64,000 bases of DNA, from the sequence record PP391266.1; one strand, 5' to 3'. This DNA comes from Escherichia phage PJNS034. Positions 5,439-49,453 of the stretch are shown here, piece after piece. The stretch's first letter is position 1. Every line of letters starts with the position of its first letter. The notes under the pieces were generated by a model, which searched no databases, had not been told where the DNA came from, and saw only the letters and a list, made by a program, of their open reading frames with translations. The translations under genes were made by a program, and so were the position numbers.

Positions 5439-5762
5439 ATGATTCTATCTGGCACTGTAAATCTTCAAACTGTTAACACTGAGAAGTTAGTAGAAATTGG
5501 TGAAGCTGTCTGCATCGCTATGGAGCAACGTAAGCAGCTCCTACGCAAGAAGTTCCGAAAGCATGGTAAGGATGCCCTTACTGACTTTGAACTCCGCCTG
5601 ATTGACGAGGCGCACGATTTGGGCACAGACTTCAACGAAGCACTGACTCTTGAATCAAAACGACACGATGAACAACTTGAATCTGACTTCGCTGCTATGA
5701 ACGCTGCTGATAACGTCGGTTCAGAAACATTAAAACTGTTAGACATTCCAGCAGAACGATGA
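5439..5762 (+). CDS. hypothetical protein
   Basis: 107 aa ORF. Confidence 0.35.
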   Translation: MILSGTVNLQTVNTEKLVEIGEAVCIAMEQRKQLLRKKFRKHGKDALTDFELRLIDEAHDLGTDFNEALTLESKRHDEQLESDFAAMNAADNVGSETLKLLDIPAER

Positions 5763-5805
5763 TACTCTAGGGCTTCCCGTTAGGGGAGAGTAAGAAATAA
5801 TATAA

Positions 5806-5831
5806 GGAATATTAGTAAGATATAATATTCC
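5806..5831 (+). promoter_or_regulatory. perfect 9-bp palindrome GGAATATTA-N8-TAATATTCC containing TATAAT
   Basis: Hairpin/operator-like element 25 nt upstream of ORF 5856 and the tRNA cluster; shares GGAATATTAsTAAGA with element at 47265. Confidence 0.4.
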
Positions 5832-5855
5832 TTAATATTACTCCTGAGGTGACTC

Positions 5856-13887: not shown

Positions 13888-13987
13888 TGAAAGTTCTTCT
13901 CTGCGAGAAATGTCATGCCGCTGAATTAGCCAGTGTTCGTAAAGAGTACATGCCGATTCGCAAATACCGCCCCTATTGATACAACAA

Positions 13988-14024
13988 AGCCCCAAGGGAT
14001 TTCTCCCAAGGGGCTTTTCTTTTA
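13988..14024. terminator. convergent (bidirectional) terminator hairpin
   Basis: AGCCCCAAGGGA-TTTC-TCCCAAGGGGCT with T-rich flanks on both strands, between converging + and - arms. Confidence 0.5.
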
Positions 14025-20770: not shown

Positions 20771-20830
20771 GTTGCCTCCTTCTTTTTAGTTATTATATCC
20801 CAACGGATTTACAAACTCAAAATTATATGG

Positions 20831-20867
20831 TATTTTAAGCTTCTAGCGTCCGAAGGGAAATAATAGG
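20831..20867. promoter_or_regulatory. conserved intergenic element, copy A
   Basis: TATTTTAAGCTTCTAGCGTCCGAAGGGAAATAATAGG; near-identical copy at 34719-34754, core copies at 47255 and 43104. Confidence 0.45.
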
Positions 20868-20911
20868 TAATAATATAGAAGGGAGAGATGTTACTCCCTC
20901 CCAACATACTA

Positions 20912-34672: not shown

Positions 34673-34718
34673 GTTTCACCTCGTTGAAATAACACTTCCC
34701 TTCTTCAACTTTTCATGC

Positions 34719-34754
34719 TATTTTAAGCTTCTAGCGTCCGAAGGGAATAATAGG
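34719..34754. promoter_or_regulatory. conserved intergenic element, copy B
   Basis: TATTTTAAGCTTCTAGCGTCCGAAGGGAATAATAGGG, 35/37 identical to copy A. Confidence 0.45.
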
Positions 34755-42463: not shown

Positions 42464-42919
42464 TTAGTTACTTTCTGGAACAGCAACAGTCAGCTTAATA
42501 CCAGCCAACTTGTCTGCAATCATCTTGTCCAGCTCTTCAGCAGTCAGTTCTTCATCATTCTTAATGTCCACTTCAACAGAAGCAGCTTTAGGATAGACGA
42601 TATCGACCAGCTTCATAGCAGCCATCAGACGCTCTTTAGGAGTAGCTGTGGGGCTTTCCATCACATCAATGAGGTATTCATCAGGGCGAATACGAGCGTT
42701 TGCTATAGCGTCTAACATTTGCTGTGTGAGCTTGTTACGGGAGCCTTTCTTACGACCGCGACCAAAATTATTGCCGGGTAAGAAGGTGTTTTTGACAAGA
42801 TTTCGACCTTTCGAGCAGGGATGGCCTTCTTCACTGAAAAATTCAATGGTTTTGCCTTTATACTCGTCTCCTACGCTGAGATGAGAGTAATCATCCACAT
42901 AAGTCTTTTCATTAGACAT
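42464..42919 (-). CDS. putative terminase small subunit
   Basis: 151 aa, basic GRGRKKGSRNK region, first gene of late arm. Confidence 0.4.
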   Translation of the reverse strand: MSNEKTYVDDYSHLSVGDEYKGKTIEFFSEEGHPCSKGRNLVKNTFLPGNNFGRGRKKGSRNKLTQQMLDAIANARIRPDEYLIDVMESPTATPKERLMAAMKLVDIVYPKAASVEVDIKNDEELTAEELDKMIADKLAGIKLTVAVPESN

Positions 42920-42920
42920 T

Positions 42921-43048
42921 CATGCCACCTAATAATGGGGTTAGTTGAAAGATACACTGTAAGATGGAACCATTCATGCCAGTTCATCTACATGCCATGT
43001 CATAAGTATACACTGATAAGAGGCTATCATGCCACCTCATACATGCCA
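42921..43048. repeat. five direct repeats of CATGCCA (minus strand TGGCATG) upstream of terS
   Basis: Copies at 42921, 42975, 42991, 43028, 43042 with similar flanks. Confidence 0.55.
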
Positions 43049-43103
43049 GTCCATACTTCTGTGGGGATATAGGTAAGAGATGCTACATCTTACACTACTT
43101 ATA

Positions 43104-43125
43104 CCTATTATTTCCCTTCGGAATA
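43104..43125 (-). promoter_or_regulatory. conserved intergenic element, copy D (inverted)
   Basis: Minus strand reads TATTCCGAAGGGAAATAATAGG; contains TATTCC-GAAG-GGAATA hairpin. Confidence 0.4.
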
Positions 43126-43793
43126 TAATGTTTAGGGTACAGGAAGAAGTGCCATATGACAAGACTTATTTACCAATTGAATTACAAATTCAGTGAATTT
43201 ATAAGTGTGAGATAACAAAGTGTGGATATTGCTCACTTTTTAACCAGAAACGTAAATTTCACTTGAGCGGTATGTGGCATATCAGCTTTAGCATAATGTT
43301 CAAAAAGGGGGAACGGGTTCCGCTCATGTTCCGGCGTGTGAATGAGGCGTGTAGACTACCACTAGCCCCTACCCTGAGTCAATACCCTCACTGGTCTGAT
43401 GAGTGTGACTGCTCAAGTAGTAACCGTGTGATGCCGTGTGATGAGTACCCATCGTGCATAGTTATTCATGATAATTTATTTTTGGATAGCCTGAATAAAT
43501 AATAGCCAGTGACCCGTTAGAATCTGCGTGCGTGTCTGATACTGCCTGAGTTATACCTCCATAACGCCAACGTTTAAACGGTGTATTGATAACGGGTAAC
43601 AAGCCAGCGACAAGTGAATAAATATTCCAAGAGATAGCATATCTAATCAATCTATCTTCTCTTTATTCCTTTTACAGTGTAATTCTTATTTGTTTATAAG
43701 TAATAATTCTCCTCGACCTATTGACAATTACCGTCGAGTAAATTACGCGTGTGTTTCATTACGTCTTAAAGAAATGATTTGTTTGTTTTGCTA

Positions 43794-43821
43794 TTGACTT
43801 TTTAACTCATTCGTTTAATAT
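43794..43821 (+). promoter_or_regulatory. sigma70-like promoter candidate
   Basis: TTGACT, 16-17 nt spacer, TAATAT. Confidence 0.4.
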
Positions 43822-43876
43822 AGCTCCCCGTTGAAACGCAGAACATCGCGGAGTAAACAAGTTAATCACTAAGTGG

Positions 43877-43905
43877 TTGACTGAATCGGGTTAGTATGTT
43901 TTAAT
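43877..43905 (+). promoter_or_regulatory. sigma70-like promoter candidate
   Basis: TTGACT, 17 nt spacer, TTTAAT. Confidence 0.35.
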
Positions 43906-44086
43906 GCTTACCGATTCAAACGCTCTTTAAAAATGTGGTCTGTCTTTAGGTGGTGTTTAACATCATTACTACAAGGCGCTTAGTTAGTTATCTGGTTTTG
44001 ATTCCTGTTTCATTAGTGATTCAGGCGGATTGATAAAGCATCTTCAATAAGTCTTTAACAGTTCGATACTTCGAAGAAATTAACGA

Positions 44087-44114
44087 TTGACAGCGTACTA
44101 GATTCCTGTAAGAT
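44087..44114 (+). promoter_or_regulatory. sigma70-like promoter candidate
   Basis: TTGACA, 16 nt spacer, TAAGAT. Confidence 0.4.
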
Positions 44115-44232
44115 AGACCACGTTTTAACGCTCTTTAACAATATGAATCATTAACGCTTAAACGTTAGTTTAATCAGACGTTATCAAGTGAAGCTGAAAA
44201 GTAACACGATAACAAATGATGAAAATAAACGG

Positions 44233-44260
44233 TTGACAGCGTGAAATGATTCGGTATAAT
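44233..44260 (+). promoter_or_regulatory. strong sigma70-like early promoter
   Basis: Consensus TTGACA, 16 nt spacer, consensus TATAAT, about 480 nt upstream of first early gene. Confidence 0.6.
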
Positions 44261-44741
44261 GAGCGCCATCGAATGACAGAACGTTGTCAGACGATAGCCG
44301 GATAAGTGGATAACTTATAACGGCAGTTCGATAAAGTAGTGTGGTAGCGGGTAGCGGTATGTAACACGGATAATCTACGGATTAACGGCTTATTTGTTGC
44401 TTGCTTAAAGCATAAAACGTCGGGCGGCACGATGGGAGAAGTGCATAAAATCAATTAGGCTCCCTGACTCTTTAACAATTAGGAAACTACGCACCACAAT
44501 TAACGTTGGATAACGTAAAGAGTGGGTTAATTTAGGGTGATTCCCTGCGTAGGCTTGTCGAGCTGATAACAGCGGTATGTGATGGACGCTTATATACTCC
44601 CTCCATGATAGTGTATGACTGATTCCACCTAGGCCAAAGTGAAAGGGCGATAACGAATAGCAAGTAACAATCTCGTTTGATATGGGCATTTAATAGTGAG
44701 TGTCCAGATTAAACGATAAAACTGAATTGAGGATTAAACCT

Positions 44742-46886: not shown

Positions 46887-47209
46887 TTACTATCGGAGAC
46901 CGTGTACTGTATCGTTATTCACCTGCTGGCTTACCTGTGTATGGTGTGGTAGCTGATGTGTTTCAAGGTGTTGCGGCTGTAAGGGTTAACATTGAGAACC
47001 CAAACCAGACAAGAAGCGGCACTAAGGCGCTAGTCATGTATCGTAAGGTGGAAAGCTGGGAGCCTTTGAGTGAGAAGTCGCCTCTTCACGATGATTTTGT
47101 GTTGCTTGTACTGCCTCATAACGTTCGTATTTGGATTGTTAAGCAGTTGAAACGACACTCCGTAACACCCGTCATGCTTGAAAAGCTGATGGATATGAGC
47201 CGAGTTTAA
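46883..47209 (+). CDS. hypothetical protein
   Basis: 108 aa ORF, ATGA overlap. Confidence 0.4.
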   Translation: MITIGDRVLYRYSPAGLPVYGVVADVFQGVAAVRVNIENPNQTRSGTKALVMYRKVESWEPLSEKSPLHDDFVLLVLPHNVRIWIVKQLKRHSVTPVMLEKLMDMSRV

Positions 47210-47217
47210 TCCGGCTA

Positions 47218-47246
47218 TTGACAACCTTCGGATGTGACGGTAAGCT
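47218..47246 (+). promoter_or_regulatory. weak sigma70-like promoter candidate
   Basis: TTGACA, 17 nt spacer, TAAGCT (poor -10). Confidence 0.3.
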
Positions 47247-47263
47247 AAGCCCAAGCGTCCGAA

Positions 47264-47331
47264 GGGAATATTACTAAGAAATAATATAAGAAAGATTATA
47301 TCTAACTATATTACTTCTTATTAATATTCCC
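47264..47331 (+). repeat. long inverted repeat: 17-bp stem (1 mismatch) with 34-nt AT-rich loop
   Basis: GGGAATATTACTAAGAA ... TTCTTATTAATATTCCC; left arm overlaps conserved element copy C. Confidence 0.55.
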
Positions 47332-47349
47332 TTACTTATTGGAGGAGTT

Positions 47350-47436
47350 ATGTTATCTCTTATCAAACTTCATCAAGATAAACTAATCATTGCACTGGTT
47401 GTGATTCTGTCCTGCTTGAACATGGATGGTGTGTGA
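47350..47436 (+). CDS. small hydrophobic peptide (28 aa)
   Basis: Strong RBS GGAGGAG then ATG; MLSLIKLHQDKLIIALVVILSCLNMDGV; TGATG coupling to next gene. Confidence 0.3.
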   Translation: MLSLIKLHQDKLIIALVVILSCLNMDGV

Positions 47437-47792
47437 TGCAGGGTGTTTATCTTAAACCTCGCATTCAAGACCACATTAAAGCGACTCTGGACTTTCACTC
47501 TGCGGGTGGCAAGATTAACGAGGTGATGGTGTTGGAGTTGTGTGATGTGATGCTGACCTTCGGCATATGTCTGCGAAATCATCCACCAGAAGCTCAAGGA
47601 CAGGCTCTAAAGGGTTGCGCTAGGGAAATGCTCAAGCGGATTAAATATCCTGCCCTGCGTATTCTGGTGCGTAAAATGCTAGTGCCTTTCGCTTTACCTA
47701 AAGGTGTGTTTAACGAGTTGGAACACATCATGGAATCCTGCATCAACGGGATGAATGAAACAACTCACCAAACGATTGAACAAAAGGATTAA
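47436..47792 (+). CDS. hypothetical protein
   Basis: 118 aa ORF. Confidence 0.4.
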   Translation: MQGVYLKPRIQDHIKATLDFHSAGGKINEVMVLELCDVMLTFGICLRNHPPEAQGQALKGCAREMLKRIKYPALRILVRKMLVPFALPKGVFNELEHIMESCINGMNETTHQTIEQKD

Positions 47793-48052: not shown

Positions 48053-48469
48053 ATGAAGCGTGTGCTTAACCTGTCTGCCGATAAGGTGAACGGGTATGTG
48101 TTTAAAGATAGCCCGTCTATCTACTGGTCATGGTGGCATGTATTGCTCACCGTGGCCTTTGTTGTATTGGTGGTGTTCGCTTTGTGTGCTCCATTCAGTA
48201 AGGCACACGCTGCATCATTCCCTGCTGGTGAGCATTTACAATGCCGCATTGAATTAGAAAGTGTTGGTGGTGGTCGTAAGCTGACGTTTAAATCTTACGA
48301 TGATTCACACATCAAACTTGCTAATAGTAATACTCTGGTGCTTCGCGGTGATGCTCAAGTGCCTGAGTCAACTGTTAACCTGAACAATGGTGAGTTGTTC
48401 GCAACAAGGGGTAGCTGGACTTATCGCGGCCTCTGTAAAAACGTAGATAATATCAGGATAAACCCATGA
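48053..48469 (+). CDS. membrane-anchored protein (N-terminal TM)
   Basis: TM segment WSWWHVLLTVAFVVLVVFALCAPF then soluble domain. Confidence 0.4.
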   Translation: MKRVLNLSADKVNGYVFKDSPSIYWSWWHVLLTVAFVVLVVFALCAPFSKAHAASFPAGEHLQCRIELESVGGGRKLTFKSYDDSHIKLANSNTLVLRGDAQVPESTVNLNNGELFATRGSWTYRGLCKNVDNIRINP

Positions 48470-48789
48470 AAAAGATTTTTACTACTGTGACGATTCTGGC
48501 TGGCCTGTTTGCTTCATCGGCTAACGCCTTTGTTTGCACTGGTACTGCTACCCATAAAGACGGTGGCACGGCTGACATTATCGTTAACACCAACGATATG
48601 GTGTTTGATGATGCTGTCGGTCTGTATCGTGCTGAAACTCAGTGGCATCCTAAGCTGGCCTCTACGCTGTATGTAGACCAGTCTGAAAAGACAATCGAAG
48701 GTGTTGGCTTCCGTGGCATGTACACCGCCGTAGCAGTCGATAGCAAAGACGTTATCATGATTGCTGACGACCTTGTTTGCTATGAGTAA
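48466..48789 (+). CDS. secreted/periplasmic protein (signal peptide)
   Basis: MKKIFTTVTILAGLFASSANA-F: Sec signal with AxA cleavage site. Confidence 0.45.
   Translation: MKKIFTTVTILAGLFASSANAFVCTGTATHKDGGTADIIVNTNDMVFDDAVGLYRAETQWHPKLASTLYVDQSEKTIEGVGFRGMYTAVAVDSKDVIMIADDLVCYE
48481..48492 (+). repeat. 12-mer ACTACTGTGACG, copy 6
   Basis: Exact, codons 6-9 of signal-peptide protein. Confidence 0.9.
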
Positions 48790-49174: not shown

Positions 49175-49453
49175 ATGAAAAGAATTGCAATGCTGTTAAG
49201 TGCTGTAATGCTGACTGGCTGTGTATCACTGACTGAGCAGACTGATAAAGAGTTGTGCTTTGGTTATGGTCGTGCTGAGTCAGAAGCGATGCGTGATGCT
49301 ATCTTGCAAGAGATGCAAGAGCGTCAGGATGCTGGTATGTTCCCGATTGCTATCGAGGAATGTAAGAAGCAAGTGTTTCGTGGTATTCAATCACGGAATG
49401 AATCAAACCTTCTATCTGCGAGCATGATTGGTGCTCGTTACCAACAACAATAA
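49175..49453 (+). CDS. lipoprotein
   Basis: MKRIAMLLSAVMLTGC lipobox (L-T-G-C); 92 aa. Confidence 0.5.
   Translation: MKRIAMLLSAVMLTGCVSLTEQTDKELCFGYGRAESEAMRDAILQEMQERQDAGMFPIAIEECKKQVFRGIQSRNESNLLSASMIGARYQQQ

What the first reader, a model, noticed from the sequence alone, without database searches (positions are those of the whole stretch)
47264..47436. Large hairpin followed by a tightly coupled 28-codon hydrophobic ORF
A 17-bp inverted repeat with one mismatch encloses a 34-nt AT-rich loop at 47264-47331. Nine nt later a consensus RBS (GGAGGAG) drives a 28-codon hydrophobic ORF (47350-47436) whose stop overlaps the next start (TGATG). The hairpin's left arm overlaps the conserved GCGTCCGAAGGG element, and the GGAATATTAsTAAGA motif is shared with the perfect palindrome at 5806-5831 upstream of the tRNA operon. 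This looks like a regulated leader (attenuator, RNase III site or operator).
Basis: seen in the sequence. Interest (0 to 1): 0.45.

Follow-up and report, generated by a model that had tools for sequence, protein, structure and literature searches.

The report
Conserved phage promoter-leader hairpin plus micro-gene
The hairpin and the 28-codon ORF are real and conserved: they form the 5' leader and first gene of an internal early operon in a phiEco32-like phage. The hairpin is probably an RNA processing or stability element rather than an attenuator, which makes this solid but fairly ordinary phage regulation.

Summary
Every detail of the observation checks out. The window is nearly the whole genome of a phiEco32/7-11-like podophage (Escherichia phage PJNS034; nearest database relative Pantoea phage TacPo2).

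The site reads in this order:
- a sigma70-type promoter (TTGACA, 17 nt, TAAGCT; 47218-47246)
- an invariant 16-nt element, TCCGAAGG+GGAATATTA
- an AU-rich hairpin of about 26 bp (47262-47333), the strongest local inverted repeat in the window
- an SD sequence
- a 28-codon hydrophobic ORF whose stop overlaps the start of a DUF7740 gene.

In ten related loci:
- The promoter keeps T1, A2 and T6 of its -10 hexamer.
- The hairpin keeps its pairing across six sequence variants: 96.8% of cells paired, two AU<->UA covariations, G.U pairs on the + strand only.
- The ORF keeps 28 codons and the TGATG overlap in two divergent alleles.
- No pipeline has ever annotated this ORF.

There is no U-tract after the hairpin, so attenuation is unlikely. 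The site is one of five paralogous promoter-leader cassettes. Two of them point antisense into the late operon, and one precedes the tRNA cluster.

Best reading: an RNA leader hairpin, RNase III-type or stabilising, followed by a translationally coupled micro-gene. The mechanism is inferred, not shown.

The parts
47218..47246 (+). Sigma70-type promoter: -35 TTGACA (47218-47223), 17-nt spacer, -10 TAAGCT (47241-47246). Predicted transcription start about 47253-47255.
   Evidence: Read. In 10 related loci the -35 is invariant and the spacer is always 17 nt. The -10 is TAAGCT, TATGCT, TACAAT or TAAACT, so only positions 3-5 vary. The simple scan misses it in the window because TAAGCT matches only 3 of 6.
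47225..47232 (+). CCTTCGGA, an inverted copy of the TCCGAAGG box, inside the promoter spacer.
   Evidence: Invariant in all 10 loci, with one extra C in L044 and L047. Function unknown.
47258..47273 (+). Invariant 16-nt initial-transcribed element: TCCGAAGG followed by GGAATATTA (the GRAATAWTA motif).
   Evidence: Invariant in all 10 loci. TCCGAAGGGAA has 4 exact copies in the window and the same 4 in TacPo2. GRAATAWTA gives 10 hits against 1.5 expected, 9 of them inside the five cassettes.
47262..47333 (+). AU-rich RNA hairpin in the 5' UTR, about 26 consensus base pairs.
   Evidence: 27-nt arms, 93% complementary, z = -4.5; 6 variants, 96.8% of cells paired against 43-53% when slid, 2 covarying pairs, 7 G.U cells on the + strand. 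Covariance model.
47341..47347 (+). Shine-Dalgarno GGAGGAG for the small ORF.
   Evidence: An SD (GGAGGA, AGGAG, GGAGA or GAGGA) is present in all 10 loci. It is predicted to be partly paired in every variant.
47350..47436 (+). 28-codon hydrophobic micro-gene (MLSLIKLHQDKLIIALVVILSCLNMDGV), unannotated everywhere.
   Evidence: 28 codons and the TGATG overlap are kept in 10 of 10 loci. There are two alleles differing at 14-17 codons, both hydrophobic at residues 12-24. The sequence is absent from the 15-billion-protein collection.
47436..47792 (+). DUF7740 gene, translationally coupled to the micro-gene (TGATG).
   Evidence: Pfam PF24886, 29.7 bits against a cut-off of 28. Homologues in Logan contigs.
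5740..5850 (+). Paralogous cassette ahead of ORF 5856 and the tRNA cluster: TAGACA, 17 nt, (TG)aTACTCT; a GC mini-hairpin 5773-5788; an AU hairpin built on GGAATATTA/TAATATTCC (about 5798-5840).
   Evidence: (z = -3.4). It is 100% identical in TacPo2. It is nearly invariant in relatives whose downstream ORFs differ. The hairpin model hits it at E about 6e-4.
20808..20865 (+). Cassette a: TTTACA, 17 nt, TGgTATTTT, 12 nt, TCCGAAGG, GAAATAATA. It points antisense to the late genes.
   Evidence: The + strand promoter has an extended -10. It lies back-to-back with a minus-strand TTGAGT-17-TATAAT promoter and next to a minus-strand terminator-like hairpin.
34716..34752 (+). Cassette b: TGcTATTTT (extended -10), 12 nt, TCCGAAGG, GGAATAATA. 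It points antisense to the late genes.
   Evidence: It is 88% identical to cassette a over 43 nt (D13).
43106..43161 (-). Cassette c: TTGTCA, 17 nt, TACCCT, 10 nt, TCCGAAGG, GAAATAATA, at the head of the late (terminase/portal) operon.
   Evidence: TacPo2 has TGGACA, 17 nt, TACCCT at the same place.

Best explanation
The finding is the 5' end of an internal early transcription unit of a phiEco32/7-11-like lytic podophage.

Host sigma70 RNA polymerase starts at about 47253-47255 from TTGACA-17-TAAGCT. The transcript opens with an invariant 16-nt element (UCCGAAGG+GGAAUAUUA), which runs straight into an AU-rich hairpin of about 26 bp. Nine nucleotides after the hairpin an SD drives a 28-codon hydrophobic micro-protein. 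Its UGA overlaps the AUG of the DUF7740 gene, so ribosomes are handed on by translational coupling.

The hairpin acts as RNA on the + strand. I think it is most likely a processing or stability element of the kind phage T7 carries in its early mRNAs: an RNase III target, or a barrier or stabiliser. Such an element would set the 5' end of the downstream mRNA and the 3' end of read-through mRNA from upstream. It is not a terminator.

Shown: the promoter signature, conservation and covariation of the hairpin, conservation of the ORF, and the stop/start overlap. Inferred: the transcription start, that the hairpin is cleaved or stabilising, that RNase III is the enzyme, and that the peptide is made and inserts in the membrane.

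My sub-confidences are: anatomy (promoter, leader, micro-gene) about 0.85; hairpin selected as + strand RNA about 0.7; RNase III specifically about 0.35.
For: Promoter. In 10 loci the -35 TTGACA and the 17-nt spacing are invariant. The -10 hexamer changes only at positions 3-5 (TAAGCT, TATGCT, TACAAT, TAAACT).

Hairpin.
- It is the strongest inverted repeat in the window, at -30.1 kcal/mol with z = -4.5.
- Six distinct variants share a 26-pair consensus.
- 96.8% of cells are paired, against 43-53% with slid partners.
- Covariation score is 0.123 against 0.080 for shuffles; 3 of 500 shuffles reach it.
- AU<->UA swaps occur at two pairs.
- There are seven G.U cells on the + strand. Only one cell (an A.C mismatch) would be G.U on the - strand.

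Not a terminator. The terminator scan finds nothing. The tails after the stem are UUACUUAU, UACUAAUA, UUAAUAUU and UAAUUAAU.

Fit to an RNase III substrate.
- The helix exceeds 22 bp.
- The interior is almost entirely A-U or G.U. GC pairs at proximal-box positions are the known antideterminants (PMC3867540, read).
- It lies in an early phage leader, and the helix has internal loops like the T7 sites (own knowledge: Dunn and Studier).

ORF.
- 28 codons and the TGATG overlap are kept in 10 of 10 loci, across two alleles that differ at 14-17 codons.
- Within an allele the substitutions are conservative or synonymous.
- Only 13-17% of shuffles per allele stay open in frame.
- Both alleles are hydrophobic at residues 12-24.
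Against: There are no transcript data of any kind. Sixteen of the 26 pairs never vary, so covariation rests on few events among closely related sequences. Quasipalindrome correction by template switching could also 'repair' the arms.

The lower stem and the box are invariant in sequence, which structure alone does not require and which fits protein recognition.

With the predicted start, 7-9 nt precede the stem, more than a classic 5'-terminal stabiliser tolerates.

The conserved ends of the ORF (MLSLIK, DGV) coincide with its own initiation region and with the SD of the next gene. Part of the peptide conservation could therefore be nucleotide-level.

The RNase III cleavage position is unknown, so the antideterminant rules cannot be applied.
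Confidence: 0.5

Rival explanations
1. DNA operator. The invariant TCCGAAGG box, with its inverted copy CCTTCGGA in the spacer, and the GGAATATTA/TAATATTCC repeats are binding sites for a phage-encoded regulator. That regulator switches a set of five promoters. On this reading the hairpin is only a by-product of inverted half-sites.
For: The box plus GRAATAWTA sits at a fixed 10-12 nt after a -10-like hexamer in all cassettes. It is invariant in 10 loci and in the same positions in TacPo2. It occurs in both orientations relative to the neighbouring genes. TCC-N4-GGA is itself palindromic. The tRNA-leader copy is a perfect palindrome and is sequence-invariant even where the flanking genes differ.
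Against: The inner stem, outside the motif, keeps its complementarity through AU<->UA swaps. G.U pairs are tolerated on the + strand only, which a duplex-DNA site does not explain. The spacing between inverted motifs is 8 nt in one cassette and about 48 nt in the other. No candidate regulator was identified. The two readings can both be true: the box as operator and the stem as RNA.
Confidence: 0.2
2. Transcription attenuator. The hairpin terminates most transcripts from the upstream promoter unless a factor or a ribosome prevents it.
For: The hairpin is promoter-proximal and stable. In the window the tail UUACUUAUU is fairly U-rich.
Against: The scan finds no terminator-like site. There is no U-tract in TacPo2 or the other variants. 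The stem is AU-rich. No alternative antiterminator fold appears. The ORF lies after the hairpin, not before it, so translation cannot control it.
Confidence: 0.07
3. Type I toxin-like module. The 28-aa hydrophobic peptide is a membrane toxin, and its translation is held down by the structured leader and an antisense RNA.
For: The peptide is small and hydrophobic (GRAVY 1.0-1.4). The SD is predicted to be largely paired in every variant. A promoter-like TTAATA-18-TATAAT lies on the minus strand inside the hairpin.
Against: That minus-strand match lies in AT-rich palindromic sequence and is expected by chance. The hydrophobic run is only about 13 residues. The ORF is coupled to a downstream gene within a lytic phage's early operon. 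The SD partner differs between the two alleles.
Confidence: 0.05
4. Recombination cassette only. The conserved promoter-hairpin sequence persists because it mediates modular exchange, as proposed for PeSLs, and has no role in expression.
For: Hairpin variants and ORF alleles occur in shuffled combinations. The tRNA-leader cassette is invariant next to different downstream ORFs.
Against: This does not explain the -10 signature, the compensatory changes or the fixed position of the SD. It is compatible with the main explanation rather than an alternative to it.
Confidence: 0.05

Closest known systems
RNase III processing hairpins of coliphage T7/T3 early mRNA (R0.3, R1.1 and others) and the conserved processing hairpins downstream of Bacillus phage SP82 early promoters (own knowledge; substrate rules from PMC3867540)
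   Same: A hairpin of more than 20 bp with internal loops, in a leader or intercistronic region of host-RNAP-transcribed early phage mRNA, just upstream of an SD. Paralogous copies occur within one genome.
   Different: There is no sequence similarity and no Rfam match. The stem is unusually AU-rich. Cleavage has not been shown. Only two of the five cassettes carry the long hairpin.
PeSL (promoter-early stem-loop) cassettes of T4-like phages (PMC2839356, PMC4122927)
   Same: A repeated composite of a sigma70-type early promoter and a stem-loop. It is conserved in sequence next to variable small ORFs and shows signs of modular shuffling.
   Different: PeSLs are described as terminator/promoter composites. 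Here the stem-loop lies downstream of the promoter, inside the 5' UTR, and lacks a U-tract. There is also an extra invariant box at about +4 to +20. The phage family is different.
5'-terminal stem-loop mRNA stabilisers (ompA 5' UTR, T7 phi10 leader; own knowledge)
   Same: A stable structure near the 5' end, followed by an AU-rich stretch and a strong SD.
   Different: Those are short GC-rich stems within 0-4 nt of the 5' end. This one is a 26-bp AU stem with a predicted 7-9 nt lead-in.
Small hydrophobic bacterial and phage peptides (type I toxins TisB, Ibs, ShoB; small membrane proteins such as KdpF; own knowledge)
   Same: Under 30 aa, one hydrophobic segment, and missed by annotation.
   Different: No homology. 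The hydrophobic run is short. The ORF is coupled to a downstream gene. No antitoxin RNA is evident.
phiEco32 gp36-dependent middle/late promoters (AATGTA at -11.5; PMC12276001, PMC4281155)
   Same: The phage lineage is the same, and a few conserved promoter-associated motifs sit at the heads of late transcription units.
   Different: The motif is not enriched here. No gp36 homologue is detectable. The cassettes have sigma70-like hexamers, and two of them face away from the late genes.

Membership tests
Sigma70-dependent promoter | -35 and -10 hexamers with a 16-18 nt spacer | tested here: met
   TTGACA, 17 nt, TAAGCT. TacPo2 and L043 have TATGCT; L044 and L047 have TACAAT.
Sigma70-dependent promoter | Comparative signature: the critical -10 positions T1, A2 and T6 and the spacing are conserved while other positions drift | tested here: met
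   10 loci, 4 different hexamers, variation only at positions 3-5, spacer always 17 nt.
Sigma70-dependent promoter | Mapped primary 5' end | not testable with these tools
   No transcript data are available.
E. coli RNase III substrate (T7 early type) | Coaxial dsRNA of about two helical turns (22 bp or so) | tested here: met
   26 consensus pairs in 6 variants. The window copy has 27-nt arms at 93% complementarity.
E. coli RNase III substrate (T7 early type) | No GC/CG antideterminant pairs at proximal-box positions 2 and 4 | tested here: inconclusive
   The interior has only two G-C pairs, at alignment columns 27-67 and 40-52. The cleavage site is unknown, so the register cannot be set (rules from PMC3867540).
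E. coli RNase III substrate (T7 early type) | rnc-dependent cleavage | not testable with these tools
   Needs rnc+ versus rnc- infection, or purified enzyme.
Intrinsic terminator / attenuator | GC-rich stem followed at once by a U-tract | tested here: not met
   The scan finds none in 47100-47450. The tails are AU-mixed and not conserved.
Intrinsic terminator / attenuator | Leader peptide or alternative structure upstream that controls the terminator | tested here: not met
   The only ORF starts 17 nt after the hairpin. The minimum-free-energy folds show no competing fold.
PeSL promoter/stem-loop cassette | Repeated conserved composite of an early promoter and a stem-loop | tested here: met
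   Five cassettes share -10, box and GRAATAWTA. Two of them carry long hairpins.
PeSL promoter/stem-loop cassette | Terminator-type stem-loop combined with the promoter (terminator/promoter composite) | tested here: not met
   The hairpin lies downstream of the promoter and has no U-tract.
PeSL promoter/stem-loop cassette | Sits at junctions of variable gene content | tested here: met
   The tRNA-leader cassette is invariant next to three different downstream ORFs. Hairpin variants and ORF alleles are recombined at site d.
Protein-coding small ORF | Frame, length, start and stop conserved despite divergence, with substitutions biased to conservative or synonymous | tested here: met
   28 codons in 10 of 10 loci. 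The two alleles differ at 14-17 codons. Within alleles the changes are S/T, D/E, L/I or synonymous. Only 13-17% of shuffles stay open.
Protein-coding small ORF | Evidence of translation | not testable with these tools
   Needs Ribo-seq or tagging. There is no match in Pfam or PHROGs.
Type I toxin-antitoxin | Antisense or divergent regulatory RNA | tested here: inconclusive
   Only an AT-rich, chance-level promoter match lies on the minus strand.
phiEco32 gp36-type promoter | AATGTA-type element at -11.5 and a gp36 sigma encoded by the phage | tested here: not met
   TAATGTATA gives 9 hits against 12 expected. tblastn with gp36 finds nothing at E below 0.1. About 1.7 kb of the genome lies outside the window.
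Any Rfam family | Covariance-model match | tested here: not met
   Only sub-threshold chance hits at the site. The whole window yields tRNAs only.

The most novel reading that the evidence does not exclude
The 16-17-nt element TCCGAAGG-GRAATAWTA, fixed about 10-12 nt downstream of the -10 hexamer of five sigma70-type promoters, could be the recognition site of an unidentified phage factor, acting on DNA or on nascent RNA. That factor would co-ordinate a small regulon. The regulon would contain the tRNA operon, an early membrane-protein operon and the head of the late operon. It would also contain two promoters that fire antisense into the structural genes. The long hairpins would be built from inverted copies of the same recognition motif. 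This would be a transcription-timing device in the phiEco32-like lineage, different from the known gp36/gp79 switch.
Probability: 0.2. Interest if true: 0.6.

Novelty: new variant of a known kind. Interest (0 to 1): 0.35.

Why it matters
- It adds a conserved, never-annotated micro-gene to this phage group, and it exposes a spurious annotation in TacPo2.
- It defines a testable family of promoter-leader cassettes in a lineage whose transcription programme is known only from phiEco32 (gp36/gp79). That programme seems not to apply here: there is no gp36 homologue and no AATGTA motif.
- If the antisense-facing cassettes are active, they would be an example of early antisense transcription across late genes under a shared cis-element.
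- On a practical level, the cassettes are compact host-RNAP promoter/leader parts from a coliphage.
- None of this overturns current understanding.

Tried and rejected
- Further relatives in IMG/VR, using the flanking proteins and the box pattern: none found. The 36 box hits were all chance matches. Terminase large subunit (TerL) found only a distant Aeromonas phage, which lacks the box.
- JGI metagenomes and GTDB genomes, using promoter-plus-box patterns: nothing, apart from one chance hit in a Bacteroidetes-like gene.
- INPHARED phages: only TacPo2, by DNA or by protein.
- Rfam: no family.
- phiEco32-style transcription: the motif is not enriched and there is no gp36 homologue. PDB look-ups of two candidate proteins were uninformative.
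- Box as an RNA mini-hairpin or boxB-like element: only 3 bp (UCC/GGA), so it is not supported.
- Box as a C(UUCG)G tetraloop on the minus strand: only one closing pair.
- CsrA or Hfq sites: the GGA motifs are not conserved in the window variant.
- Hairpins at cassettes a-c: not conserved between the window and TacPo2, except the GC hairpin at a, which reads as a minus-strand terminator.
- Exact look-up of the 64-aa protein after the tRNA-leader cassette: not on record.
- Literature: no paper on PJNS034 biology or on TacPo2.

Full report
**What the window is**

A protein next to the site is 100% identical to one from Escherichia phage PJNS034, on a 65,715-bp contig. The only relative in the phage collection is Pantoea phage TacPo2, at about 76-78% nucleotide identity and 93% identity of the terminase large subunit (TerL). 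More distant TerL relatives are the C3-morphotype podophages 7-11, GAP52 and the phiEco32 group.

The genome carries phiEco32-type COOH-NH2 ligase, amidoligase and GlmS-like genes. It also has a 10-tRNA cluster. A leftward late operon covers 14-43 kb, and rightward early and middle genes fill the rest.

**Checking the observation**

The inverted repeat is larger than reported. The arms are 47262-47288 and 47307-47333: 27 nt, 93% complementary, 18 nt apart. This is the longest inverted repeat in the window and the outstanding local one. As RNA it folds at -30.1 kcal/mol, z = -4.5. The 34-nt 'loop' is therefore mostly stem.

**What lies upstream**

A sigma70-type promoter precedes the hairpin: TTGACA (47218-47223), 17 nt, TAAGCT (47241-47246). 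The consensus scan misses it because TAAGCT matches only 3 of 6 positions. Comparison is more telling.

I recovered nine related copies of the locus: TacPo2 and eight Logan contigs. In all ten the -35 hexamer and the 17-nt spacing are invariant. The -10 hexamer reads TAAGCT, TATGCT, TACAAT or TAAACT. Positions 1, 2 and 6, which matter most for sigma70, never change, while the surrounding spacer and discriminator drift. I take this as good evidence for a functional promoter, with a start near 47253-47255. That start is inferred, not mapped.

**The hairpin**

The ten loci contain six distinct hairpin sequences. RNAalifold gives a common 26-pair structure. Counting pairs on that structure gives the following:
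- 96.8% of cells are paired, against 43-53% when partners are slid by 1-3 columns.
- Two pairs show AU<->UA exchanges, one of them split 3:3.
- Three pairs vary on one side only, through G.U.
- Only 3 of 500 column shuffles reach the observed covariation score.
- Seven cells are G.U on the + strand. Only one cell (an A.C mismatch) would be G.U on the - strand.

This favours selection on the + strand RNA rather than on duplex DNA or the antisense RNA. There are caveats. Sixteen of the 26 pairs never vary. The sequences are close relatives. Template-switch 'correction' of quasipalindromes could mimic compensation.

**Not an attenuator**

No variant has a U-tract after the stem. The tails are UUACUUAU, UACUAAUA, UUAAUAUU and UAAUUAAU, and the terminator scan is empty here. 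The small ORF lies after the hairpin, not before it.

In the predicted folds the hairpin itself does not contain the SD. The SD is nevertheless predicted to be partly paired in every variant. In one group of leaders it pairs with the UCCGA of the box; in the other it pairs with codons 3-5 of the ORF. These are weak helices of 5-7 bp, and I treat this only as a hint.

**The small ORF**

All ten loci have exactly 28 codons, an SD, and the stop/start overlap TGATG with the next gene. There are two alleles:
- ...LHQ(D/E)K(L/I)(I/L)IALVVILSC(L/I)N(M/V)DGV
- ...SYRYEI(YF/LL)..MM.LMCVNVDGV

They differ at 14-17 codons yet keep the same length and a hydrophobic core at residues 12-24. Within an allele the changes are S/T, D/E, L/I or synonymous. 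Only 13-17% of shuffles of either allele stay open in frame. I conclude that it is a real gene.

One caveat applies. The invariant ends (MLSLIK, DGV) overlap its own initiation region and the SD of the next gene, so part of that conservation may be at the nucleotide level.

The peptide is absent from a 15-billion-protein collection, and it matches nothing in Pfam or PHROGs. TacPo2's annotators instead called a 34-aa ORF (TacPo2_85) across the promoter and hairpin. In the window that frame reads ATG TGA, so the annotation is spurious.

The downstream gene carries DUF7740. The operon continues with small proteins of unknown function; their N-termini read like a membrane segment, a signal peptide and a lipoprotein (Cor-like).

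**The conserved box and a family of cassettes**

TCCGAAGGGAA occurs four times: 20849+, 34737+, 43122- and 47258+. The same four syntenic sites carry it in TacPo2.

Each copy lies 10-12 nt downstream of a -10-like hexamer with a plausible -35 or an extended -10:
- TTTACA, 17 nt, TGgTATTTT
- TGcTATTTT
- TTGTCA, 17 nt, TACCCT
- TTGACA, 17 nt, TAAGCT

Each is followed directly by the 9-mer GRAATAWTA. That 9-mer occurs 10 times in the window against 1.5 expected. Nine of the ten lie in these four sites or in the leader at 5794-5831. The pattern is the same in TacPo2.

The 5740-5850 leader has the same layout: TAGACA, 17 nt, TGaTACTCT, then a GC mini-hairpin in place of the box, then GAAATAATA and GGAATATTA/TAATATTCC forming an AU hairpin. 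It shares a 16-nt identity, TAAGAAATAATATAAG, with the finding.

A covariance model of the finding's hairpin picks up this second hairpin (E about 6e-4) and nothing else of note. The second cassette is 100% identical in TacPo2. It is almost invariant in Logan relatives whose downstream ORFs are quite different. At the finding itself, hairpin variants and ORF alleles occur in shuffled combinations. Both points recall the PeSL cassettes of T4-like phages (PMC4122927).

Cassettes a and b face away from the late genes around them. Cassette a is back-to-back with a minus-strand TTGAGT-17-TATAAT promoter and lies next to a minus-strand terminator-like hairpin. If a and b are active, they make antisense RNA.

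Only the finding and the tRNA leader have significantly stable, conserved hairpins.

**Mechanism**

I commit to an RNA leader hairpin that is processed or stabilising, with the micro-gene translationally coupled to DUF7740.

RNase III is the most likely enzyme, for three reasons:
- The helix exceeds two turns.
- The interior is almost free of the G-C pairs that act as antideterminants (PMC3867540).
- Its position in an early phage leader, and its internal loops, match the T7 and SP82 precedents (own knowledge).

This step is inferred. I give it about 0.35, against about 0.85 for the anatomy.

The main rival is that the invariant box and motif are an operator, or a recognition site on nascent RNA, for an unidentified phage factor. 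This could be true alongside the RNA hairpin.

phiEco32's own system does not appear to apply. Its AATGTA-type motif is not enriched, and no gp36 homologue is detectable. About 1.7 kb of the genome lies outside the window.

**Verdict**

This is a real, conserved regulatory leader with an overlooked micro-gene. It is a new variant of known kinds of phage element (promoter/stem-loop cassettes, early-mRNA processing hairpins). Interest is moderate to low, and would rise if the five-cassette regulon with antisense promoters proves active.

Noticed in passing
window 22, 5030, 8838, 13848, 46568, 48480, 50639, 54354, 59972 (all + strand): The 13-mer (T/A)ACTACTGTGACG occurs nine times on the early/middle strand only (10 hits in all against 1.5 expected). 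Several copies follow GGA/AGGA and contain a GTG or ATG that could be a start codon. It may be a conserved initiation cassette or a regulatory or promoter motif.
   Followed up: partly
window 20808-20865 (+) and 34716-34752 (+): Two box-bearing sigma70-like promoters (extended -10 TGnTATTTT) point antisense into the late structural operon. They are conserved in TacPo2. The copy at 20.8 kb is back-to-back with a minus-strand TTGAGT-17-TATAAT promoter and next to a minus-strand terminator-like hairpin (20876-20903).
   Followed up: partly
window 5740-5850; loci L054-L057, L061: The promoter-leader cassette ahead of the tRNA cluster is 100% identical in TacPo2. It is nearly invariant in relatives whose upstream -35 region/spacer and downstream ORF differ (64-aa Cys-rich, 97-aa signal-peptide or 120-aa proteins). 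It behaves like a mobile regulatory cassette.
   Followed up: partly
window 42919-43048 (- strand): Four copies of TGGCATG(A/T)A lie in the roughly 200-nt leader between cassette c and the first late gene (42464-42919, upstream of terminase). The window has 6 copies in all against 1.4 expected. This may be a pac-like or regulatory repeat.
   Followed up: no
L001 3742-3846 (TacPo2_85, WXX18540.1): This annotated 34-aa CDS spans the promoter -10, the box and the hairpin. The frame is not conserved (ATG TGA in the window), so the CDS is probably spurious. The conserved 28-codon ORF just downstream is not annotated.
   Followed up: yes
window 42920-44700: A 1.8-kb non-coding divergent region lies between the late and early operons. 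It carries several near-consensus sigma70 promoters (for example TTGACA-16-TATAAT at 44233 and TTGACA-16-TAAGAT at 44087). None has the box. These are probably the immediate-early promoters.
   Followed up: no
window 13986-14017: A GC-rich palindrome, AAAGCCCCAAGGGA/TCCCAAGGGGCTTT, lies between the convergent rightward and leftward operons. It is probably a bidirectional terminator.
   Followed up: no
whole window: There is no detectable homologue of the phiEco32 sigma gp36 and no enrichment of its promoter motif, despite the clear kinship with phiEco32-like phages. How late genes are switched on in this 65-kb lineage is open.
   Followed up: partly
window 49175-49453 and 48466-48789: The operon downstream of the finding encodes a putative lipoprotein with a weak Cor-like N-terminal match (phrog_1119, E = 5e-4). 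It also encodes a protein whose N-terminus reads like a signal peptide. These may have superinfection-exclusion or envelope functions.
   Followed up: no
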